Source: Octopus vulgaris
Lineage: Eukaryota
Length of the DNA: 64,000 bases
Assembly (NCBI GenBank): GCA_951406725.2
Contig: OX597836.1
Coordinates: 27,280,001 to 27,344,000 of the forward strand
Direction of reading: 5' to 3'
How positions within the stretch are numbered: position 1 is the first letter of the stretch; each line of letters starts with the position of its first letter. The notes below the pieces were generated by a model. The model saw only the letters and a program-made list of their open reading frames with translations, was not told the origin of the DNA and ran no database searches. The position numbers were made by a program, and so were the translations under genes. This document shows positions 5,921-64,000 of the stretch, piece after piece.

Positions 5921-6564
5921 TATATATTCCCTTTTGTTCTTGGGAAAACAAAGCATCAGAAAGCAAAACCTGGTGCCAGTCCTGCTTCTCCTCAGTTCAA
6001 AAATTTGAGCAAAATCAACTCCAAAACTGAGATCAACTTCATGCAAGCATGAAGACACGCTGGCAAAATGCTGCTCCTCTAAATGAAAACCTTACCTGTC
6101 ATTGTGGTTTTGTGGCATGAAGCATAGCAGGCCTGGCCATTCACTCAAAAAAACACAGAGTAAATAATCCACAAACACTCAAACAAACTGAGTGCTCAAC
6201 TTGTTCCATTTGCCAAAAGGTTTGCAAGGAACCAGCAGGCCTCAAGAAACTCATTCATGTTCATTGAACAGGATCAATGCTTTTTTTACTCTCATTTATC
6301 GCCCATGACAAGAGAATCCAATATATATATATATATATATATATCTTTACTCTTTTACTTGTTTCAGTTATGTGACTGTGGCCATGCTGGAGCATCGCCT
6401 TCAGTCGAGCAAATCGACCCCAGAGTTTATTCTTTGTAAGCCTAGTACTTATTCTGCCGGTCCCTTTTGCTGAACCGCTAAGTTACGAGGACGTAAACAC
6501 ACCAGCATCGGTTGTCAAGCGATGTTGGGGGAACAAACACAGATACACAAACATATACACACAC

Positions 6565-23850: not shown

Positions 23851-24439
23851 TATATAAATCCCTCAACAACAAAACACTACGATGAAAATATCTTTCGTGC
23901 AAATTCCTATAGAGTTGGAAATAATGGCTGGAAGTTGTAGACTCGTTCTTTGATGGAACCAAATCAAGAGACTTTGACGGGGGTATTTCAGAGATCTCCC
24001 GTGAAATATTCAGTATCTAGTGGGCGAGCAGAAACGTGAGGCGCGCTGATTTCACCTAACGAGTAAGTCCCTACCTGTATGTGGACGAATAACCCCGAAA
24101 TATTTTGCATGTTTCTATTACAAGCAAACTCGTACTAATGGTAGAAAGGGCTTTTACAAATAAATCATGTTTTAATAAGTGTTCTGTACGTTTTACTTAT
24201 GTTGTGTTTTATTTGATCAAATTTTTAATCCGTCTATTGTTCCTAGCCCTAGTCTTTATATAATTTTGCCGGCTTCCTCATGTATTGTGAATCCCTTGTT
24301 CTTTTTCTATTGTATTTTATGTATTTTCTTCGAGTTTTTGCGGATAATAAAGAAAATATTGTTGTTAGATGTAAACAGCGCTCCACATAAAAGATATCAT
24401 ATTTTATGGCATTGTTGCGGTAATTCGAAACCGAACCGC

Positions 24440-24839
24440 AGTTATAAGTTACCATGCACTTATAGACTACATTATCTAAATTACAATTATTATTAAATAT
24501 ACATGTAGTCTTATCACTACATGCACAATAAATAATATCTTGGTCTTTATTATTATTATTTGAATCAATATTTAATCTATCTTTGTAGAATTTATTTAAT
24601 TTAAATGTATTAAATGAAGAAATAATATTACCAACATTACTAGTAGTTGAATACCCAACTCCAAAATTATTAATAGAAAAAATGTTATAATATTTTCTAT
24701 TATCCCTAATGAATATTTCAATTATATTTAAAATCTCTTTAATAAGATTTGTTTTAACCTGAGCCCCAAAAGGAACGATTGACCATATTTTATTTTCATC
24801 TTTTGTATTATTATTATTATTATATATTTTTTGTAATAT
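24440..24839 (-). mobile_element. Penelope-like element fragment: RT C-terminus, Cys-rich linker and start of GIY-YIG endonuclease
   Basis: Stop-free frame without an upstream ATG: KIWSIVPFGAQVKTNLIKEILNIIE...YYNIFSINNFGVGYSTTSNVGNIISSFN...YCACSDKTTCIFNNNCNLDNVVYKCMV. This parallels the PLE pattern IIWFNPP...VKTN...IF...SYS...NI..II..N...CNCR...CPL.GNC....VVY. Confidence 0.75.
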
Positions 24840-24969
24840 TTATTTTATTTTTTATTCCAATATTAAATGTATTATTTACATCACCAAAATACCTATTATT
24901 ATTAGGACGATAGATTTCTAAATAAAATTTATCATAATTCAGATAATTAGGTTTATCATTATATATATG

Positions 24970-25034
<65 letters not shown>

Positions 25035-25036
<2 letters not shown>

Positions 25037-25880
25037 GCACTCCGACTCATCCGTCGCTCGGGCAATGCCTGCGGCAGTGGTTCTACCGCTGTTTTCTATA
25101 GAGGTTTTGTAGAGGCCGGTTGCGATGATACATTAGGGGAGACCCTAGGTTTCGACGATAATCAGCAGGCCAGACTGTTCCAACATACATTCGAGCCGAG
25201 GGCCCTGGATAATTTTCAGAAGTCCTTGGCATGGCAGTGTTACCGAGGTGCCTTACCTGTTCGGGATAAACTCTCAAGGCATGGTGGCCACGACACCCCG
25301 ATCTGTCCGAGATGTGGGCGAGACAGGGAAACCGTTTCGCACGCGATTGTGCAGCGTCCGGAGGTGTCAGACATGTGGGTTTGTGCCGAACAACTGCTGT
25401 CAGGTGGAGGAAGAGCACAGCTATCGACTGAATCCATAGTGAAAATTGACCCACCGGATTTCTTAACGAAAGAAGGTAAGAATTGTTTTCTCTCTGTGGT
25501 AGCAGTTGCGAAACAGGTAGTATGGAAGACAAGGATGAGAGGATTGATGTCAGGCAACTTCATCTCTGGTCCTGGTTTGGTGGAATTTTTTATATTCCAC
25601 CTAAAGAGACAAATACGGCTGGAGAGGAGGTGTGTGAGTAAGAAAGTGTTTGATGAAAGATGGAAGAATGTCGTGTATAAAAGGTCTCTTGTGGATGCGA
25701 GATAAGCCAAAAAACCGAGGTCAGTGAAGAGGCGGGGTTCATTGTTTAAAAAATGTCCATTGTGTTGTTTATATAAAATCATGTTAAATTATTAGCGAGC
25801 CCAAATTGCGCTTTATATGTAAAACCATGCGTGATTGTATCGTCCATTCTATGTATGCCCTTATGGATAATAAAAAAAAT
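25035..25880 (+). mobile_element. L1/Tx1-type LINE 3' fragment (zf-RVT region and 3' UTR)
   Basis: DNFQKSLAWQCYRGALPVRDKL...CPRCGRDRETVSHAIV...AKQVVWKTR: zinc-binding CxxC..ET..H domain. It ends in AATAAAAAAA. Confidence 0.8.
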
Positions 25881-29803: not shown

Positions 29804-30648
29804 CTTTCTTGAAATGTATCCGGTATCTATACCGAAGTTACGCCAAACCATTAAATTATGGCGATGCTTCGGTATAGGTACACACATGACTTTGTTTACC
29901 AGCGATATGTAGCAACATCTGATAGCCTGGTCGGTCACGTAATCATGTAATATATATATATATATATATATAGATAGATATGTCATAGTAACATGTAGAC
30001 TATTTGGTATTGTTAAACACTGCTAGTCACAGTGTGCTTCATGTTGTTTTAGCTTTTGAATGCCACCCTCCTGGCTAGGCAAGCAGGCTTGCTGACATTC
30101 CGTATGAATGTGATGTCAGTCCATCACAGGGTGACCCATTTATAGCTGAGTGCTCTGGGGCTATGTTAAATGAAGTGTTTTACCCAAGAACACAATGCGC
30201 TACCAGACTGGGAATTGAAATCACAATCTTGCATTCATGAGTGCAACAGCCTAACCACTAGACCATGTTGCTTTACTACATGCAATATATGTTGTTATAG
30301 TTTTTTTTTTTTTTTTTTTTATATATTTAGTATGTAAATGTTAATTTATTACTATTCCTTATCTTTACAGCTATTCAGAACTTTACCTGGTCTCACAACG
30401 ACAGTTTATCTGAAACCAGGAAGAAACAGATCTGCATGAGTACATATGTATATATATATATGTTTTTTTACTGTTCTCACAAGCAATTTTATGAAAACTT
30501 TCAAATATATTTATAAAACTTATATGTTGAGTGTAACAAAAGGAGTCTCCGGGCTCTCTTCGATGTGCATGTCAGCTGCAAAACCTCACAGCAACATCAA
30601 CTAAACACCAACCAATGCAACAAAACCAAATAACACATTAGTATCGGC

Positions 30649-30806
30649 ATGGAGTTTCAGTTTTCTGGAAACACAGGGAATAATACCCCACCTAAAATTT
30701 ACCACGAGACGCAAAGGCTGCAACTCTGTGGCCTTCATGCACTCAACAACTTGTTCCAAGATGGTAATGCCTTCACCAAAAAGGATCTGGATAATATCTG
30801 TACAAG
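30649..30806 (+). CDS. JOSD1: Josephin-domain deubiquitinase (JOSD1/2-like), coding exon 1
   Basis: [52 protein letters not shown](R) resembles human JOSD1 [27 protein letters not shown], including the catalytic Cys. There is an in-frame TAA upstream at 30631 and a donor AG|GTAAAT, phase 2. The symbol indicates family; it is probably a co-ortholog of JOSD1/2. Confidence 0.93.
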
Positions 30807-31039
30807 GTAAATATACAACACCTGTGTATGTATGTATGTATGCGTGAGTGTGTGTGTGTGTGTATGTATGTGTTTTACATTATATGTGTTAGAAAGGGCC
30901 TCCAGCTGTAGAAACTATACCAAAACAGATATGGGAGCACAATGTTGTCCTTGGCCCTGGCAGATCCTGTCAACCAAGTTGTCCAACACATGGAACATTG
31001 ATGATGATGATGGTGATGATGATGATGATGATGCCTGCA

Positions 31040-31420
31040 TACCTGTAGGTAAATATACAACCCATATACATATTTGTAGGTGTGGGTGCCTTTTACAATA
31101 CATGTTGCATGCCTGCAGGAGCTGAAACATGCTACGCATATATGAATGCATGCGGAGGTGTATCTTCTGCGAGGGGAGTTTGCACCTGTGGGAGCTAAGA
31201 TATGCAACACCTGTACGAATTTATATGAAATGTGTATCTTCTAGGAAGTGAGTTCACACCTGTCAGAGCTAAACTATACAACCCCTATATAAGTGTGTGT
31301 GTGTGTGCGAGAGGTACCTTTTGTGAGGTGAGTTTGCACCTGTAGGTGCTTAGATATACAAAACTGGTATGAATGTATGTTAGAGGTATCTTTTGAGAGG
31401 TGAGTTCACACCTGTGGGGA
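31040..31420 (+). repeat. Diverged ~75-80 bp minisatellite in JOSD intron 1
   Basis: Recurrent GGT(G)TATCTT..GAGGTGAGTT(T/C)(G/A)CACCTGT..GAGCTAA.ATA(T)(G/A)CAAC units, about 4-5 copies. Confidence 0.65.
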
Positions 31421-31626
31421 AACGAGATCTTGAGTGACCTATTCCTTGGGTTTTCTATTTCGATTCCTACTTCTAATTATTTCCCTTCCAGTCTGGATGC
31501 AACAAAACATTTGCTAGAAGAATGGAATTTGGTTCCACTGGATACTGTTTGGCGATTCACCTTAATATGAAGAATTTGTGTTTGCCCCACAAACACCGCT
31601 TGACAACTGGTATTGGTGTGTTTAGA

Positions 31627-32535: not shown

Positions 32536-32661
32536 ATTATGCCCCAAAGAAATCTTTAATCCCTACCGCAGTACATTTGCAGTGGGAAACTATGATATAA
32601 ATGTCCTCATGGTAGCAGTGCAATCAAAAGGTTATGATATGCTCTGGTTTAACAAAACAAG
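32536..32661 (+). CDS. JOSD1: JOSD1/2-like, coding exon 2
   Basis: Acceptor TTTCTTTATTCCCAG|. Translation (R)LCPKEIFNPYRSTFAVGNYDINVLMVAVQSKGYDMLWFNKT(R), cf. JOSD GNYDVNVIMAALQ.KG...VWWDKRR. Donor AG|GTATGT; 126 bp, phase 2/2. Confidence 0.93.
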
Positions 32662-40892: not shown

Positions 40893-41304
40893 GAATTTGA
40901 AATGTTTAGTTTTGGAGAACATTGAAGGTTTTATACTGAACATTCCGTGTGGCAACATAATCATGAAACTCATTTCTCAGGGCAAGCACTGGATTACCAT
41001 CAGGAAAATCGGTAACGTCTACTACAGCTTGGACTCCAATAATAAGGCACCGGTCGAGATTGGTAACGATGACGAGCTTCTCGTCCATCTCTGTGAACAG
41101 TTGAATAACAATCATACGGAATTATTTCTTATAGTCACACCTGATGTTGATAAAAATAAAAGTTGGTTTAGACAGTTACCACCAGAAGAGGAATGGGGGA
41201 ATCCACTAACCAAACCTTTGGATCCTAAAAAAAAAAAATCCGAAACTGCTTGTGAATCTGAGGATTCTTCAGACACAACACAAAATGGTTGCAATCTGAT
41301 TTAA
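40893..41304 (+). CDS. JOSD1: JOSD1/2-like, coding exon 3 (catalytic His/Asp, C-terminal tail with CaaX)
   Basis: Long pyrimidine tract then CCAAG|G, phase 2. Translation NLKCLVLENIEGFILNIP...KHWITIRKIGNVYYSLDS...ELFLIV...SW...PKKKKSE...NGCNLI*. The exons total 158+126+412=696 nt, giving 231 aa. Confidence 0.92.
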
Positions 41305-41829
41305 ACTAGTTCCAACCAATCTCTCAAACCTTTGTTTGACTTTTTTTTCTTCTTTTTTTTTTTTTTTCATTTTGTTTTTGTTTGTGTGAAGAATTATTGA
41401 CTGCATGTGTGTGTTTGTATAATTATATATGTGCACATGCATTTATGTGTGCACGTGTGTGTGTGTGTGTGTGTGTGCATGTGCACATATATCACGTGGT
41501 CATGTGATTGCCCAGACTATTGCAAGTTGTTATACATCACTGGTCACAATGTGCTTTGCATTATTTTTGGCTCCCGAATGATGCCACTCCATTGGTTAGG
41601 TGAGCAGGCCAACGTTTCTCCTGGCCAGAAAGCCACTCCGTCACAGGGTTAACCATTGAGAGCTGAGCAGACTGGAGCAACGTGAAATGAAATGTTTTGC
41701 TCAAGAACACAATATATGGCTTGGTTCTGGAATTGAACCCACTATCTAGCAATTATGAATGCAACACCATGACCTGTAGGCCACATACCTTCATATAGAT
41801 TGATACATACATACATACATACATCTCTC

Positions 41830-57948: not shown

Positions 57949-58270
57949 TACATACATAGATATGCACATATATGCTTCCATATACGTACACAAACGCACC
58001 CATAATACATACATACATACATACATACATACATACATACATACATACATACATACATACATAGAGTCCCCACTACACACACATGCATGCACTTACGTAT
58101 GTATTTACGCGCATACACGTAAATACGAACAGGGATGAAAACAGACATTAAAAACAGACACACAGACAGACAGAGAGGCAAGCGTTAATGATTTTTTTTG
58201 TGTTTTTTTTTTCCACATAAATCGAAAGGTAAAAGTAAAACAACGATTTCAGAATCTTGTTGAAACTAAT

Positions 58271-58733
58271 TTAAAGCAGATTGCAACCTTTTTGTGAATT
58301 TTCTGAAGAATTATCTGATTCATCATTGATATTTTGTGATAAGCCCGAAGACGTAGGTGGTATGTGCATAGTCTTTTGTGATTTGCGCAAAGGATGTCCC
58401 AATTTGTGTTCGATCCAATGTTTTCGGCGATTGTCACAGAAATGCGTCGTTCTCTCTTTGATTTTTAATTCCTTCATCCAAGAATCATCGTACACCGTGC
58501 CTTCATTCACAAGACAAAACAACATGGTGCGTTTGTTCTTTATTTCTTCAGCCAAATGAGTGAAAAGTGCTTCTTGGTCGCCGATTTTAATGACGTAGGG
58601 CAAAAGAGAATCGATCTTGTAGAAAGCGCGGCGAATTAAGGCAATGGTAAGCCAGTGGCCTCCTCTTCCACCCCTGCTGCAGGTGTGAATTACGAAACCT
58701 TTGATCTCCCTCATAGCCAAGCTTCTAATGTCT
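58271..58733 (-). CDS. Divergent Josephin-domain paralog, last coding exon
   Basis: Pyrimidine tract and CATCAG|A acceptor in the same phase as exon 3 of the + gene. Translation DIRSLAMREIKGFVIHT...GHWLTIALIRRAFYKIDS...IGDQEALFTHL...SW...QKGCNLL*, 153 aa with no stops. Upstream exons were not found in the window. Confidence 0.82.
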
Positions 58734-58858
58734 CTGATGGTAGTGGCGGTCACGGTAGGAAGTAAGAAGAAGAATAAAAAAAACAAAACAAAGTATACAA
58801 GTCACACTTGAGGTTTCAATCTTACAATAAGAAGTGTTTGGGGATTCGGGCCAAGAAT

Positions 58859-58861
<3 letters not shown>

Positions 58862-58941
<80 letters not shown>

Positions 58942-59078
58942 ACACACACACTTATACATGCATACACATATACACATACATTTATACATATATATATATA
59001 TATACATATAGACATGTATACATACATACATACACACACATATATATATATACATACAGTATATATATACATACATGC

Positions 59079-59111
<33 letters not shown>

Positions 59112-59173
59112 TATACACATACATAGTAATTATACATACATATATACATGCATACATGCGTACATTTATTCGA

Positions 59174-59217
<44 letters not shown>

Positions 59218-59287
59218 GTCTATCTATCTATATATGTGTATGTATATATATGTATGTATATGTATATATGTGTGTGTGTATATGTAC

Positions 59288-59338
<51 letters not shown>

Positions 59339-59520
59339 TATATATGTATATATATGTATATATATATATGTATATATATATATGTATATATATGTATATA
59401 TATATATATATGTATATACATGTATATATATATGTATATACATGTATATATATATGTATATATATATATATGTATATATATGTATGTATATGTATATACA
59501 TAGATACATATATATACACA
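58862..59520. repeat. Compound (CA)n/(TA)n/(TATC)n microsatellite block
   Basis: Seen directly. Confidence 0.92.
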
Positions 59521-61011
59521 TTAGTATATAGTAGTCGGTGATTTCAAACAACTGACGCCTTTTCCCACACTTCTCTGACTTGTCCGAAACCTATTCATTG
59601 AAGTAAGACAGACGAACTGAGTAGAAACGCAAGACAGATGGAGTGCATGTTTTTTGGGTTTTTTCTTCTTTGATGAGGGACGGTAGCCCTTTTTCTGTTT
59701 CCCAGTTTAACACCCCGCCCATCTTGCCTTTGGGTACCTTTTTTCAGAACGCACTCCGTTGCAAACATTCCAAATAAACCGGTAACCCGAGGGATCTCAA
59801 GTCTCATGCAATTTGACGCGTTGGTGTGTTCCTCCCTCTCTCATGCAGCAACTCACGTGATGTAGTTTCTTCTTCCCTTCAAAAACCATCGAGGTTGCTG
59901 CTGTCTTTGATTGAGCATTCAAAGACAGACGTCTGTTTGGTGAATTAGATCAGTGATGTGCCACAAGAAGATGCTAGGTGTGCCGCAGTGTTCCCCTATA
60001 CTGTTAGTTACGTATTTATTTCATGTCTGCCGCTGAAGTTTGAAAAGAATACAAGTGTACCGCGACTGAAGAAAGGTTGTGGAGCATTGAATTAGATAAA
60101 AAAACAAAAACTAAATCTCTTTAAGACACTGTAAATGAATTTACTAAAACCGACAATAATTATTAATCACCAAGATTTTCATTTAAAAATATTTTTAATA
60201 AATTTATTATATTTATCTCAGCATTTGCAGACACCACAAAATATAGCACGTGAATTAAGCGGTGGACATATTTTTTTCTCAAAGCATTGAATGTCAGGTT
60301 AGCTTCGTTGTAGTTAATATAAAAAATGATAAATAGACATAAAAAATGATAAATAAACATAAAAAATGACAAAACCTCCCCAAAAAATAACCTGGAATAA
60401 TTTTGCAGCCAGGAGAAAATCAATATTAGTCAACGTTATTTGTATTTGTTGAACACTTATCAGAGAAAACTGCTGGCGTGTTTCAGTTTTATTCTGATCT
60501 CATCAACGAAGTAGTCATCACTATATTTGTCAAAGTAGAGATGAATCACCCAATAAATGTAGGAAATTGTAAAAGAGAACGATTAAACAAAAGAGCAAAA
60601 ATATGCAAAAAAACCCCCAAAAAACAAACAAAAACAATAGTGACAAAGTTATAATAATAATAATTGTGTACAGTGCTCAGGTGCACTACAACGTAGAGAT
60701 GAATCACCCAATAAATGTTAATGAATGTCGCCGAGAAGAGTACAAGAAATTGACGTTTCGGATAATTTTCTTTTGTCAGGTATACCGGTAGAAAAAAGAC
60801 AAAATAATGTAAGAAGATTATAAAAAATGCGTGTTATGATTCTCTACGTACATACGTACATACATACATACACCTATACATAAATACATGCATACATATA
60901 TACATGCATGTATACATAAATACATGCATACATATGTACATGCATATATACAAGAAAACATGCATATATAATATATAATATATATATATATATATATATA
61001 CAATATATATT

Positions 61012-61097
<86 letters not shown>

Positions 61098-61108
61098 AAA
61101 AGTTTGAA

Positions 61109-61145
<37 letters not shown>

Positions 61146-61188
61146 TGTGTGTTCTGTGTGTGTGTGTGTGTTGTTTGTATGTTGTGTT

Positions 61189-61219
<31 letters not shown>

Positions 61220-61419
61220 TGTGTGTGTGTGTATATATATGTGTGTGACAACAGATGCTGCGACCAGAGGCACGACACATCTATTCACCCGCTATACCTC
61301 GATAACCCCAAAATCATCATAAGAGTATACCAATTGGCTACCGTTCTCTGTTCAGTGACAAAAAATATTTTGTGTCAAACGCTGTATATATATCCACCCA
61401 CCATGTTATGTATAAAACA

Positions 61420-61570
61420 TTTTTGAATTCATATCAATGTGACAATTATGTAACATTTTAATTCATATATCATGTACAATTATGTAAAAACTTTTGAAAT
61501 ATTCAATGTGAAATTATGTAAAACTTGAATTAATATTCAATGGACATTATTAAAAACTTTTGAACCATAT
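61420..61570. repeat. Diverged ~35-bp AT-rich tandem repeat
   Basis: Recurrent TTTTGAA..ATA(T)TCAATGTGA.AATTATGTAAAAC, about 4-5 copies. Confidence 0.55.
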
Positions 61571-61590
61571 TATTAATGTTTCCTTAAATG

Positions 61591-61643
<53 letters not shown>

Positions 61644-61645
<2 letters not shown>

Positions 61646-62183
61646 GAGTGGCCATAAAGTCACGCACCATCTGAAATATGTGAAATTGCTGACATTCTTT
61701 TTTTTTTTTTTTATCACTTTTCACAAGTGCCGATATTACTCCCAAACTAATCCTCATTGGATGGTGGCACATAATGAACAAGGAGGGGTCAAGGTAATGG
61801 TGTGGTGTGGGATTTGGCACGATCAGGTAATTGGACCATTTTATTTTGAGGGCCCTGTGACAGGTGATTCGTATCTGGACAAGCTTGGCAACAAAATGAT
61901 ATCTCACATGCATTTACTTGGAACGGGAAATCCTTCTATTCACTTGGCGGGGGGAAATCCTGAAGGACGGGAATCTGCCCCATTATACGTTACAGGTTTG
62001 TGATTTTCTGAATGAACATTTTCCAGAGAGATGGCTCGGGTTCATCGCAATTTCAAATTCCGCATGAACACTTGTTTTAAGCTACATGGCCAACACTTTG
62101 AACATTTTTTATGGATTACCTACTTCTTCGTTAGCAAAGCATACTTGATATCTCCCATGGTACGTGACTTTGTGGCCACCTTG
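61644..62183 (+). mobile_element. Internally deleted Tc1/mariner (IS630-Tc1-mariner) transposon
   Basis: TIRs CAGAGTGGCCATAAAGTCACGCACCA / TGGTACGTGACTTTGTGGCCACCTTG. Transposase remnant RYYSQTNPHW...KVMVWCGIWHDQVIGPFYFEGPVTGDSYL. Confidence 0.88.
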
Positions 62184-62212
62184 TGTATTTATATATATAA
62201 TGTATATATATG

Positions 62213-62245
<33 letters not shown>

Positions 62246-62364
62246 ATATGTATATATATATGTATGTATATGTATATGTATGTATATATATATGTATATG
62301 TATGTATATGTATATATATGGATATGTATACATATGTATATGCATATATAAATCTATCTATCTA

Positions 62365-62442
<78 letters not shown>

Positions 62443-63213
62443 TTCGTACATACGTATATACATTCGTTCATACATACACACACTCGCGCAAACAAACACA
62501 CACACACACACACACACATACACACACACATACACACATATATACGCTCCAACTTCTTTGAAACCCTATTTCTTTGCAAGACAAGCGTTCACTCTCCGGC
62601 CATTATATGAATGAATAGACACTATCACTTTTTGAAAGATTTATTTCTAGAAAACAAAATTATGACAATGGATGCATTTAAATTCTTAATCTAGACAAAG
62701 TTGTCCCAGGAGGAATTTGAACTCCAGATATAATATGCGATTGCAAATGCTGTTCCAGATATTCCCTTTCTCGATCAAGTGTGACCTTGTATCTGCGCCT
62801 GTATGCGCAGGCTTGCGCAAGGATGAGTTATATAAGATCGTCAGTGGCTCGAGCGTACGGTTTTCCAATTCCTGGTTGGTCATCAACGATGTTGTCTAAT
62901 GGAAGGGTGACGTTGATAAAGTGTGGCATCACTGTCATCGCAAGAGATGTGCTCAGAATGCGCAGAGTTAGAACGGGTAACGGTAAGGCATCACATTCCA
63001 CCGATAGTTCGGTGCTTTATTTTATCATTTTATTCAACTCCAAAAGGATGATTGCTAAAGTTCACCTAAGTAAAATTTATACACACACATACACACGCAA
63101 CATACATACATACATACATACATACATACATACATACATACATACATACATACATACATACATACATACATACATACATGCATACGTACATACATACATA
63201 ATACATACATACA

Positions 63214-63249
<36 letters not shown>

Positions 63250-63254
63250 TATAA

Positions 63255-63536
63255 TAACAATTTAATAAATAAAACATATGCATACATACATACATATATG
63301 TACATACCTACATCTATATGTATATATACATGCATATATGAGTACAGGACACCACAAATAAACGTAGAATACAACGAGAAACGAAAACATAAAATCAAAC
63401 AAGGAAACGGCCTTTTTTTTAACAACAAAAAAACAGAGTACAAGACTAACAACACAAGGAATATTCCTCTTCATCAGCTGCCCCTTTTTCGACTCAATGC
63501 GCGTTTCGAAGGTGCCTTTACCTTCGAAACACGCAT
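63255..63536 (-). mobile_element. Penelope-like terminal repeat with short terminal fold-back
   Basis: Homolog of 20285-20540. Ends in hairpin TGCGCGTTTCGAAGGT-GCCTTT-ACCTTCGAAACACGCA, with CTGATGA on - at 63471-63477. Confidence 0.55.
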
Positions 63537-63549
63537 ACACACACACACA

Positions 63550-63605
<56 letters not shown>

Positions 63606-64000
63606 CACATACATACATAGATATATACATTCATATATCATCGTTAGTCTTAACCCACGGCAACTGGGGGAGAGTCACTGATGAGGAATCATCAAATTTG
63701 AAATCATAGACGATATGGCTCAGTCTCGCTTGCGGTAGGAAGGTTGTCTCCCTTGTTAGTCATAAGATAAAGTACTTCCCGAAGCTAAGAGTTGTTCTGA
63801 AGACTTATTTCTAACAATGTTGGTGCTGACTAGACCTTAGTGACGTCTACACACATGCAAACGCACAGATATATTTTGGTTACAATGGAGCAGGCCCTTT
63901 GGGGAATGGCTGACGGTTTGGTCTGAATCTTTGCAACAGAGTGAACTCGTTCCGTTAAAGGTACCGAATGGCTTGTCCGTTGAGCTAACTGGTTGGCACA

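What the first reader, a model, noticed from the sequence alone, without database searches (positions are those of the whole stretch)
58245..58760. Convergent, fast-diverged Josephin paralog that keeps the CaaX end
Seen: this minus-strand exon has the same splice phase as exon 3 of the + gene and keeps the catalytic HW and D-S. It has a shorter Gly-rich loop (TCSRGGRGG) before the His and a longer tail. The extreme end is conserved even at DNA level: ACAAAATGGTTGCAATCTGATTTAAACTAGTTCCAAC versus ACAAAAAGGTTGCAATCTGCTTTAAATTAGTTTCAAC. It ends CNLL, a typical geranylgeranylation-type box. Inference: a local inverted duplication created a small lineage-specific family under selection to keep the CaaX while the enzyme surface diverged.
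Basis: partly seen in the sequence, partly recalled or inferred. Interest (0 to 1): 0.7.

Follow-up and report, generated by a model that had tools for sequence, protein, structure and literature searches.

The report
Octopus Josephin pair with lipid-anchor tails
This is the last exon of an intact, spliced, fast-evolving octopus copy of a ubiquitin-removing enzyme gene, and both it and its neighbouring twin end in a short signal that likely attaches a lipid anchor, which their relatives in other animals lack.

Summary
Window 58733-58271 (-) is the last coding exon of a complete JOSD-type Josephin gene (gene B, 235 aa). Its two upstream coding exons lie 3-6 kb beyond the window and carry the catalytic Cys. 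Contigs of two relatives join exon 2 to exon 3. An O. bimaculoides ortholog exists (201/235 identical, against 226/231 for the + strand twin, gene A). B has evolved several times faster than A and lost 20 of 55 conserved family positions, yet keeps Gln-Cys-His-Asp and the predicted JOSD2 fold. Exon-3 dN/dS is about 0.45-0.6: lower in the domain, near 1 in the tail. These are the only two JOSD genes found in the genome. Both end in a CaaX box (CNLL, CNLI); only 1 of 217 other homologs has a comparable end. Published yeast screens fit geranylgeranylation of CNLL. Caveat: the shared end also covers silent sites and about 40 nt of 3'UTR, which CaaX selection cannot explain, so a nucleotide-level element or gene conversion is involved. 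Best reading: a likely prenyl-anchored deubiquitinase with remodelled loops. Lipid and activity are untested. New variant of a known kind.

The parts
58271..58733 (-). Gene B, last coding exon (phase 2): catalytic His and Asp, 68-residue tail, CNLL, TAA. Its two upstream coding exons lie beyond the window: G000:C23:27347384-27347497 (L006:3384-3497) and G000:C23:27350005-27350135 (L006:6005-6135, with Gln13 and catalytic Cys18), both on the minus strand
58655..58657 (-). Catalytic His108 codon
58610..58612 (-). Catalytic Asp123 codon; the family's conserved Lys two residues later is Leu
58274..58285 (-). CaaX box CNLL of gene B
58231..58322 (-). 92-nt stretch (end of coding region plus start of 3'UTR) 79% identical to gene A 41253-41344
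58734..64000 (-). Part of gene B's last intron (it continues 3.4 kb beyond the window to the middle coding exon)
30649..30806 (+). Gene A first coding exon with catalytic Cys27
30807..30825 (+). First 19 intron bases, identical to those of gene B (L006:5986-6004, minus strand)
31125..31415 (+). About four degenerate copies of a donor-containing intron unit shared with gene B (L006:5925-6004, minus strand)
32536..32661 (+). Gene A middle coding exon
40893..41304 (+). Gene A last coding exon, ending CNLI and TAA

Best explanation
Gene B is an intact, spliced, fast-evolving duplicate of the octopus JOSD gene whose protein is likely an active deubiquitinase, likely held on membranes by a geranylgeranyl group on its C-terminal CNLL. 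Shown: three coding exons with canonical splice sites, an open 235-codon frame, the Gln-Cys-His-Asp catalytic set, an exon 2-3 join in relatives, an ortholog in a second species, a CaaX end in both paralogs of both species. Predicted: JOSD2 fold, with a low-confidence tail of about 65 residues. Inferred from the established CaaX pathway: GGTase-I modifies Cys232, the last three residues are cut and the end methylated, and the tail works as a flexible tether; with no basic cluster or second Cys nearby, internal membranes are more likely than a plasma-membrane-specific address. Inferred: the box arose before or around the duplication and replaced the indirect membrane targeting described for vertebrate JOSD1; B then lost the NPH loop motif, 8 residues of the beta2-beta3 loop and the Lys proposed as activating ubiquitination site, which would change chain or substrate preference and regulation. 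Gene A is the conservative copy.
For: Gene structure and open frame. Splicing: contigs of X11 and X2 end at 58733 and continue with 29 and 28 letters that equal the end of exon 2. Ortholog P0005 keeps frame, catalytic residues and CNLL. Q13, C18, H108, D123 are among 13 invariant columns of 50 sequences. Model matches human JOSD2 6PGV at Z 21.8, rmsd 1.6 over 142 residues, ahead of ataxin-3-like 3O65 at 16.5. dN/dS 0.20 in a 50-codon domain piece (p 0.004) and 0.44-0.59 over exon 3 (one-sided p 0.02-0.09). Cys at -4 in 7 of 217 non-octopus homologs, and Cx[VIL][LFIMV] in 1 of 217, against all 4 octopus gene copies. In a yeast GGTase-I screen of 8000 motifs, CNLL scores 0.18 at 37 C, inside the class below 0.2 (137 motifs) that holds the canonical Rho/Ras boxes (PMC11304957). 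CNLI is a reporter substrate of human FTase and GGTase-I (PMC11152559). Rate asymmetry: relative-rate test p < 0.04 with 7 of 7 outgroups; 20 versus 9 of 55 conserved positions lost.
Against: No direct test of lipid, localisation or activity. The CNLL screen value rests on 42 and 8 reads, in yeast, on another protein. B lost more conserved positions than any of 47 other homologs (maximum 14). The shared end extends over silent sites and 3'UTR, so its conservation between paralogs is not independent evidence for the box. The 25 residues before the box hold 1 basic and 4 acidic residues. Silent divergence is uneven along the exon (10.5 of 32 sites in the domain piece, 1.5 of 30 in the last 45 codons), so the domain dN/dS may be biased low; no independent neutral rate was obtained. 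The run closest to the window (X1, 0 differences) crosses the splice site unspliced, and the exon 1-2 join was not tested with reads. All 5 differences to X11 are amino-acid changing.
Confidence: 0.55

Rival explanations
1. The CaaX-like end is partly a passenger: a nucleotide-level element around the stop codon (RNA-protein or microRNA site), or gene conversion between the inverted copies, keeps the two ends alike, and prenylation of B is weak or unimportant.
For: 92 nt at 79% identity while silent sites in the domain are saturated (pS 0.71). Third positions of same-residue codons agree in 8 of 9 of the last 20 codons against 33 of 71 elsewhere. 29 of 39 3'UTR bases identical. Other non-coding stretches are shared as well: 19 of 19 intron bases, and 117 nt at 68% upstream of the first coding exon. 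B's 3'UTR differs from X2 at 1 listed base of 66 (at most 3) against 14 of 98 silent sites (p 0.005-0.07).
Against: It does not explain why the end reads Cys-x-Leu-[Leu/Ile], a type of end seen in 1 of 217 other homologs, nor why the last residue changes only between Leu and Ile. No shared RNA fold (z -1.87 and +0.99) and no Rfam match at gathering score. It is compatible with a working box as well.
Confidence: 0.2
2. B is lipid-anchored but has left ubiquitin-chain cleavage: it acts on another ubiquitin-like modifier or ester-linked substrate, or mainly as a decoy, helped by an isoform that lacks the catalytic Cys.
For: 20 of 55 conserved positions lost, including D60E, N62S, W77Q, the NPH motif and the Lys after Asp-Ser. 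Stem branch about 3.6-3.9 times that of gene A. RefSeq lists a Cys-less isoform of the ortholog (P0002) that starts from sequence ahead of an alternative donor also present here.
Against: The catalytic set and the first exon are well kept (26 of 38 residues identical to A). JOSD2 contacts ubiquitin through few residues, partly by backbone atoms, and ataxin-3, an active enzyme, also has a short beta2-beta3 loop (PMC7337049) and Leu after the triad Asn-Ser.
Confidence: 0.15
3. B is a redundant duplicate under relaxed selection, drifting towards loss.
For: 34 of 235 residues differ between species against 5 of 231 for gene A (p 1e-6). Tail dN/dS 0.85. Whole-exon departure from neutrality is marginal in the worst case (p 0.09).
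Against: The duplication is old (silent sites between paralogs saturated), yet the frame and the catalytic residues are intact in two species; the one coding indel seen is in frame (12 nt). Domain piece dN/dS 0.20.
Confidence: 0.08
4. Orphan pseudo-exon with no upstream exons.
For: The protein collection holds a 147-aa product of this window that starts at an internal Met of exon 3 and lacks the Cys (P0001).
Against: Both upstream exons were found with open frames and matching phases; spliced contigs exist; a full-length ortholog is annotated. P0001 is best read as a partial gene model.
Confidence: 0.02

Closest known systems
Human JOSD2 / JOSD1 (MJD-family deubiquitinases; PDB 6PGV)
   Same: Josephin domain as the only domain, Cys-His-Asp triad, predicted fold (Z 21.8, rmsd 1.6, 142 residues). 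JOSD1 is described as membrane-associated (PMC7479174, PMC5381560, passages).
   Different: JOSD1 is described as having no hydrophobic targeting motif; B has a 68-residue tail ending in CaaX. B lacks the NPH motif, 8 residues of the beta2-beta3 loop and the Lys equivalent to JOSD2 Lys142.
O. bimaculoides 'josephin-1' XP_014776700.1 (P0005) and XP_014776703.1 (P0003)
   Same: Orthologs of B (201/235) and A (226/231), both ending in the same boxes. The genes are already annotated by name.
   Different: The names give no hint of the CaaX, the rate asymmetry or the shared non-coding stretches.
USP32 (CaaX-bearing deubiquitinase)
   Same: A deubiquitinase with a C-terminal prenylation box linked to membrane association; a review calls it the only human DUB with one (PMC10485055, passages).
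   Different: Unrelated catalytic family (USP), 1604 residues, multi-domain. A functional analogy only.
ATXN3L (primate duplicate of ataxin-3)
   Same: A lineage-restricted Josephin-domain duplicate with changed activity (PMC5381560, passages).
   Different: Retrogene of the ataxin-3 lineage; B keeps its introns, belongs to the JOSD lineage and sits tail-to-tail with its twin 17 kb away. Tissue pattern of B is unknown.

Membership tests
JOSD-type Josephin (MJD deubiquitinases) | Josephin domain (Pfam PF02099) | tested here: met
   All three exons hit PF02099; exon 1 scores 31 bits (cut-off 26), exons 2 and 3 alone score 16.6 and 19.8. Best PDB sequence hit JOSD2, E 7e-16.
JOSD-type Josephin (MJD deubiquitinases) | Cys-His-Asp triad (Asp, not the Asn of ataxin-3) and upstream Gln | tested here: met
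   Q13, C18, H108, D123 invariant in 50 sequences; triad defined in PMC7337049.
JOSD-type Josephin (MJD deubiquitinases) | JOSD2-like fold | tested here: met
   Model pLDDT mostly above 90 over the domain; 6PGV ranks first. Predicted with a family alignment, so partly by construction.
JOSD-type Josephin (MJD deubiquitinases) | No UIM or polyQ region | tested here: met
   Pfam finds only Josephin in exon 3; no polyQ in the sequence.
JOSD-type Josephin (MJD deubiquitinases) | Conserved (not defining) surface motifs: NPH loop, Lys after Asp-Ser | tested here: not met
   NPH deleted and Lys replaced by Leu in both B orthologs; gene A has NPY and Asn.
JOSD-type Josephin (MJD deubiquitinases) | Ubiquitin hydrolase activity | not testable with these tools
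   Needs an assay.
CaaX-prenylated proteins (GGTase-I substrates) | Cys fourth from a true C-terminus | tested here: met
   CNLL then TAA in B, CNLI then TAA in A; same ends in the O. bimaculoides proteins.
CaaX-prenylated proteins (GGTase-I substrates) | Non-polar a2 and hydrophobic X | tested here: met
   Fits Cxa[L/F/I/M/V] (PMC11304957 abstract); CNLL score 0.18 at 37 C on low counts.
CaaX-prenylated proteins (GGTase-I substrates) | Second membrane signal near the box (basic cluster or extra Cys; common, not obligatory - own knowledge) | tested here: not met
   B: 1 basic, 4 acidic, no Cys in the 25 residues before the box. A: 4 basic, 6 acidic, 1 Cys.
CaaX-prenylated proteins (GGTase-I substrates) | Lipid actually attached in the cell | not testable with these tools
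   Needs labelling or mass spectrometry.
Ataxin-3 lineage | Cys-His-Asn triad, long helical hairpin, UIMs | tested here: not met
   B has Asp and no UIM; a separate Josephin gene on G000:C11 has the ataxin-3-like motifs.

The most novel reading that the evidence does not exclude
Octopus has turned its whole JOSD lineage into lipid-anchored deubiquitinases, the first prenylated Josephins, and split it in two: gene A (CNLI) takes a farnesyl or mixed, possibly uncleaved anchor and keeps the ancestral job, while gene B (CNLL) takes a fully processed geranylgeranyl anchor and has a rebuilt substrate surface. A shared alternative splice donor makes anchored but Cys-less decoy forms, and a shared element at the stop codon co-regulates the two mRNAs.
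Probability: 0.2. Interest if true: 0.7.

Novelty: new variant of a known kind. Interest (0 to 1): 0.45.

Why it matters
JOSD is generally single-copy in protostomes (PMC10050893, section 3.1) and vertebrate JOSD1 reaches membranes by an unexplained, indirect route. A natural Josephin with its own prenyl signal, plus a twin with a different box and a roughly sevenfold slower rate of protein change between species, is a ready-made comparison for how membrane targeting and loop length set a deubiquitinase's substrates. It also corrects a partial gene model. It does not reveal a new enzyme class, and both genes are already annotated by family name in a related species.

Tried and rejected
More JOSD copies or a CaaX-less canonical JOSD in the genome: searches with PF02099, exon 3, exon 1 and a snail JOSD found only A, B and the C11 gene; these searches score best candidates only and the family search missed B's exons, so this is a lower bound. 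Capture of the 3' end from a third gene or a repeat: the 24-nt pattern occurs only in A and B; the 101-nt DNA search found only itself and even missed A, so it is insensitive. Shared RNA structure or Rfam family in the conserved stretches: none; the 95 hits were all under their gathering scores and mostly microRNA models lying on microsatellites, judged by position. CpG decay as the cause of the high silent rate in the domain piece: 4 of 12 silent changes examined are at CpG, and CpG density is similar along the exon; not sufficient. Tissue of expression: no RNA holder listed on record, and runs with share 0.00 are no evidence. Read-level divergence of gene A exon 3, wanted as a neutral-rate control: not obtained, so gene A's slow rate rests on proteins only. 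ESM Atlas named only Josephin clusters. Earlier findings of this scan: three look-ups returned nothing. Literature: listings showed no paper on a CaaX-bearing Josephin or on an octopus JOSD pair; the library lacks most subscription journals, and Seki 2013 was not held. One search used a misplaced exon boundary and another; both were corrected.

Full report
Setting. The window is G000:C23:27280001-27344000 in a 2.8-Gb genome. The + strand gene (gene A) encodes a 231-aa protein identical to P0006, which its sources name josephin-1-like of Octopus vulgaris and O. sinensis. The organism is therefore an octopus.

The observation. The minus-strand exon runs from 58733 to the TAA at 58273-58271 and follows a pyrimidine tract and CAG. 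It holds His-Trp and Asp-Ser, a short Gly-rich loop, a 68-residue tail and CNLL. A 24-nt pattern made from them occurs at exactly these 2 places in the genome, with 0 control matches.

The gene is complete. In 244 kb (the window, 60 kb upstream and 120 kb downstream) two further exons lie at 67497-67384 and 70135-70005 in continued window numbering. Both introns are GT-AG, the phases are 2 and 2 as in gene A, and the frame is open for 235 codons. All three exons hit Pfam Josephin. Gln13, Cys18, His108 and Asp123 are among the 13 invariant columns of a 50-sequence alignment. The collection's own product for this window, P0001, starts at an internal Met of exon 3; I read it as a partial model.

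It is spliced in relatives. Of 24 listed runs, 13 hold the exon or part of it, and none of them is on record as RNA. I laid 4. Contigs of X11 and X2 (two studies, organisms other than X1's) stop at 58733, and their loose ends of 29 and 28 letters equal the end of exon 2. X1, with no differences from the window, crosses the splice site unspliced, and no join is listed for X10. So splicing is shown for relatives only. The exon 1-2 join rests on splice signals and the RefSeq model P0005.

It is a fast duplicate. O. bimaculoides has orthologs of both genes, with consecutive accession numbers and the same longest contig, so they are probably neighbours there too. B differs at 34 of 235 residues, A at 5 of 231 (p 1e-6). 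A and B share 87 of 212 aligned residues and their silent sites in the domain are saturated (pS 0.71), so the duplication is old. In trees of 23 and 48 rows chosen from the hits, A and B lie on one side of a branch (93/88 and 89/92, not starred; the second bootstrap had not settled) and B's stem is 3.6-3.9 times A's. Relative-rate tests favour B as faster with 7 of 7 outgroups (p 0.00004-0.03). Of 55 positions conserved in at least 80% of 47 other homologs, B lost 20 and A lost 9; the worst other sequence lost 14. Four genome searches found no further JOSD gene, only an ataxin-3-like gene on C11 (lower bounds). A 747-species survey reports one JOSD gene in most protostomes (PMC10050893, section 3.1 and passages read, figure not seen). 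I looked up 10 of the 148 further representatives and 6 carried names; none was a cephalopod other than Octopus, so the range within cephalopods is open.

Selection. One search lists 39 of 46 changed places for X2, 38 of them coding. These give 24 replacement and 14 silent changes, dN/dS 0.44; allowing for the unlisted places, 0.48-0.59 (one-sided p 0.02-0.09). A 50-codon domain piece gives 0.20 (p 0.004), the tail 0.85. Silent change is uneven: 10.5 of 32 sites in the domain piece and 1.5 of 30 in the last 45 codons (p 0.02). No neutral-rate control was obtained, so the domain value could be biased low. All 5 differences to X11 change a residue (too few to test). Reading: purifying selection, much weaker than on A; positive selection neither shown nor excluded.

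Structure. The model of P0005 has high confidence over residues 1-170 and about 50 over the tail. It matches human JOSD2 best (Foldseek E 2e-12; Z 21.8, rmsd 1.6, 142 residues). Gene A's model is alike, with the loop before the His partly helical. In JOSD2 the helix-2 loop and the beta2-beta3 loop flank bound ubiquitin, and Lys142 is proposed as an activating ubiquitination site (PMC7337049, parts 2 and 3 of 6 read). B has lost the NPH motif of the first loop, 8 residues of the second, and has Leu at the Lys position; A also lacks that Lys. Ataxin-3 has a short second loop and Leu at that place and is active, so these changes suggest altered preference rather than a dead enzyme. That is inference.

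The CaaX box. All four octopus gene copies end Cys-Asn-Leu-Leu or -Ile. Among 217 non-octopus homologs, some of them fragments, 7 have Cys at -4 and 1 has Cx[VIL][LFIMV]; in a set of 207, Cys at the other nine terminal positions occurred 2-6 times each. Yeast GGTase-I prefers a non-polar a2 and hydrophobic X (PMC11304957, abstract). In that paper's screen the 137 most depleted motifs at 37 C (score below 0.2) include the Rho/Ras boxes (part of one section read); the supplement gives CNLL 0.18 (42 and 8 reads) and CNLI 1.46, rising to 3.84 at 42 C, the pattern the authors assign to modified but uncleaved motifs. CNLI is a reporter substrate of both human prenyltransferases (PMC11152559, three passages) and is listed as positive, value 95, in a yeast FTase table (PMC10320760, passage without column heads, plus supplement rows). 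So both ends can likely be prenylated, perhaps differently. B has no basic cluster or second Cys within 25 residues of the box. A review names USP32 as the only human deubiquitinase with a CaaX box (PMC10485055, passages); another says JOSD1 is at the plasma membrane without a hydrophobic motif (PMC7479174, passages). Five searches listed no paper on a CaaX Josephin or an octopus JOSD pair.

The shared end is 92 nt at 79% identity. It includes 29 of the first 39 bases of 3'UTR and 8 of 9 silent third positions in the last 20 codons, against 33 of 71 elsewhere, while 7 of the last 14 residues differ. Selection on four residues cannot produce this. The paralogs also share the first 19 bases of an intron (unique to these 2 places), an alternative donor unit in that intron and about 117 nt at 68% upstream of the first coding exon. 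Either these are constrained regulatory sequences, or gene conversion between the inverted copies refreshed them. The slow change of B's own 3' end between species leans towards constraint. No shared RNA fold or Rfam family was found. This stays unexplained, and it means the paralog match is not independent support for a working box.

Verdict. A real, old, fast-evolving JOSD duplicate; a member of the JOSD-type Josephins by domain, triad and predicted fold; most likely a prenyl-anchored deubiquitinase (0.55). The CaaX tail is the unusual part and belongs to both octopus genes. New variant of a known kind; interest 0.45.

Noticed in passing
L006:5925-6004 (-) and window 30807-31415 (+): Reading through the main donor after the first coding exon hits TAA at once in both genes. 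Gene B has a second GT donor 53 nt into the intron; RefSeq isoform X2 of the ortholog (P0002) fits its use and lacks the catalytic Cys, and its ten N-terminal residues are encoded unchanged here. Gene A carries about four degenerate copies of this unit. Possible poison or decoy splicing shared by both genes.
   Followed up: partly
window 30807-31506: The hexamer CACCTG occurs 6 times in the first 700 nt of gene A's intron against 0.27 per kb in the region. It is an E-box-like word (recalled); it may simply follow from the repeated unit.
   Followed up: no
window 30311-30421 (+) and L006 about 6356-6470 (-): Both genes share about 117 nt at 68% with a pyrimidine tract and AG upstream of the start codon, suggesting a further non-coding first exon. 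Annotated isoform P0007 of gene A uses sequence here and skips the Cys-coding part.
   Followed up: partly
window 58274-58714 (-): The 147-aa protein P0001 in the collection covers exon 3 only; the gene model for this locus appears to miss the two upstream exons.
   Followed up: yes
G000:C11:45263127-45269565 (L001, L002, L004): A third Josephin-domain gene with ataxin-3-like motifs (Asn in the triad position).
   Followed up: partly
window 24947-25702 (+) and 24252-24839 (-): Two open frames of 252 and 196 codons that look like remnants of retroelements; identity from appearance only, not scanned.
   Followed up: no
window 58357, 58440, 58642, 58648: Four amino-acid changing differences are shared by X2, X10 and X11 against the window, so they are probably recent changes in this genome's lineage; no silent change accompanies them in X11.
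   Followed up: partly
G000:C3:117301601-117304096 (L041-L043): Polyubiquitin gene with at least 11 tandem units in a 902-codon frame.
   Followed up: no
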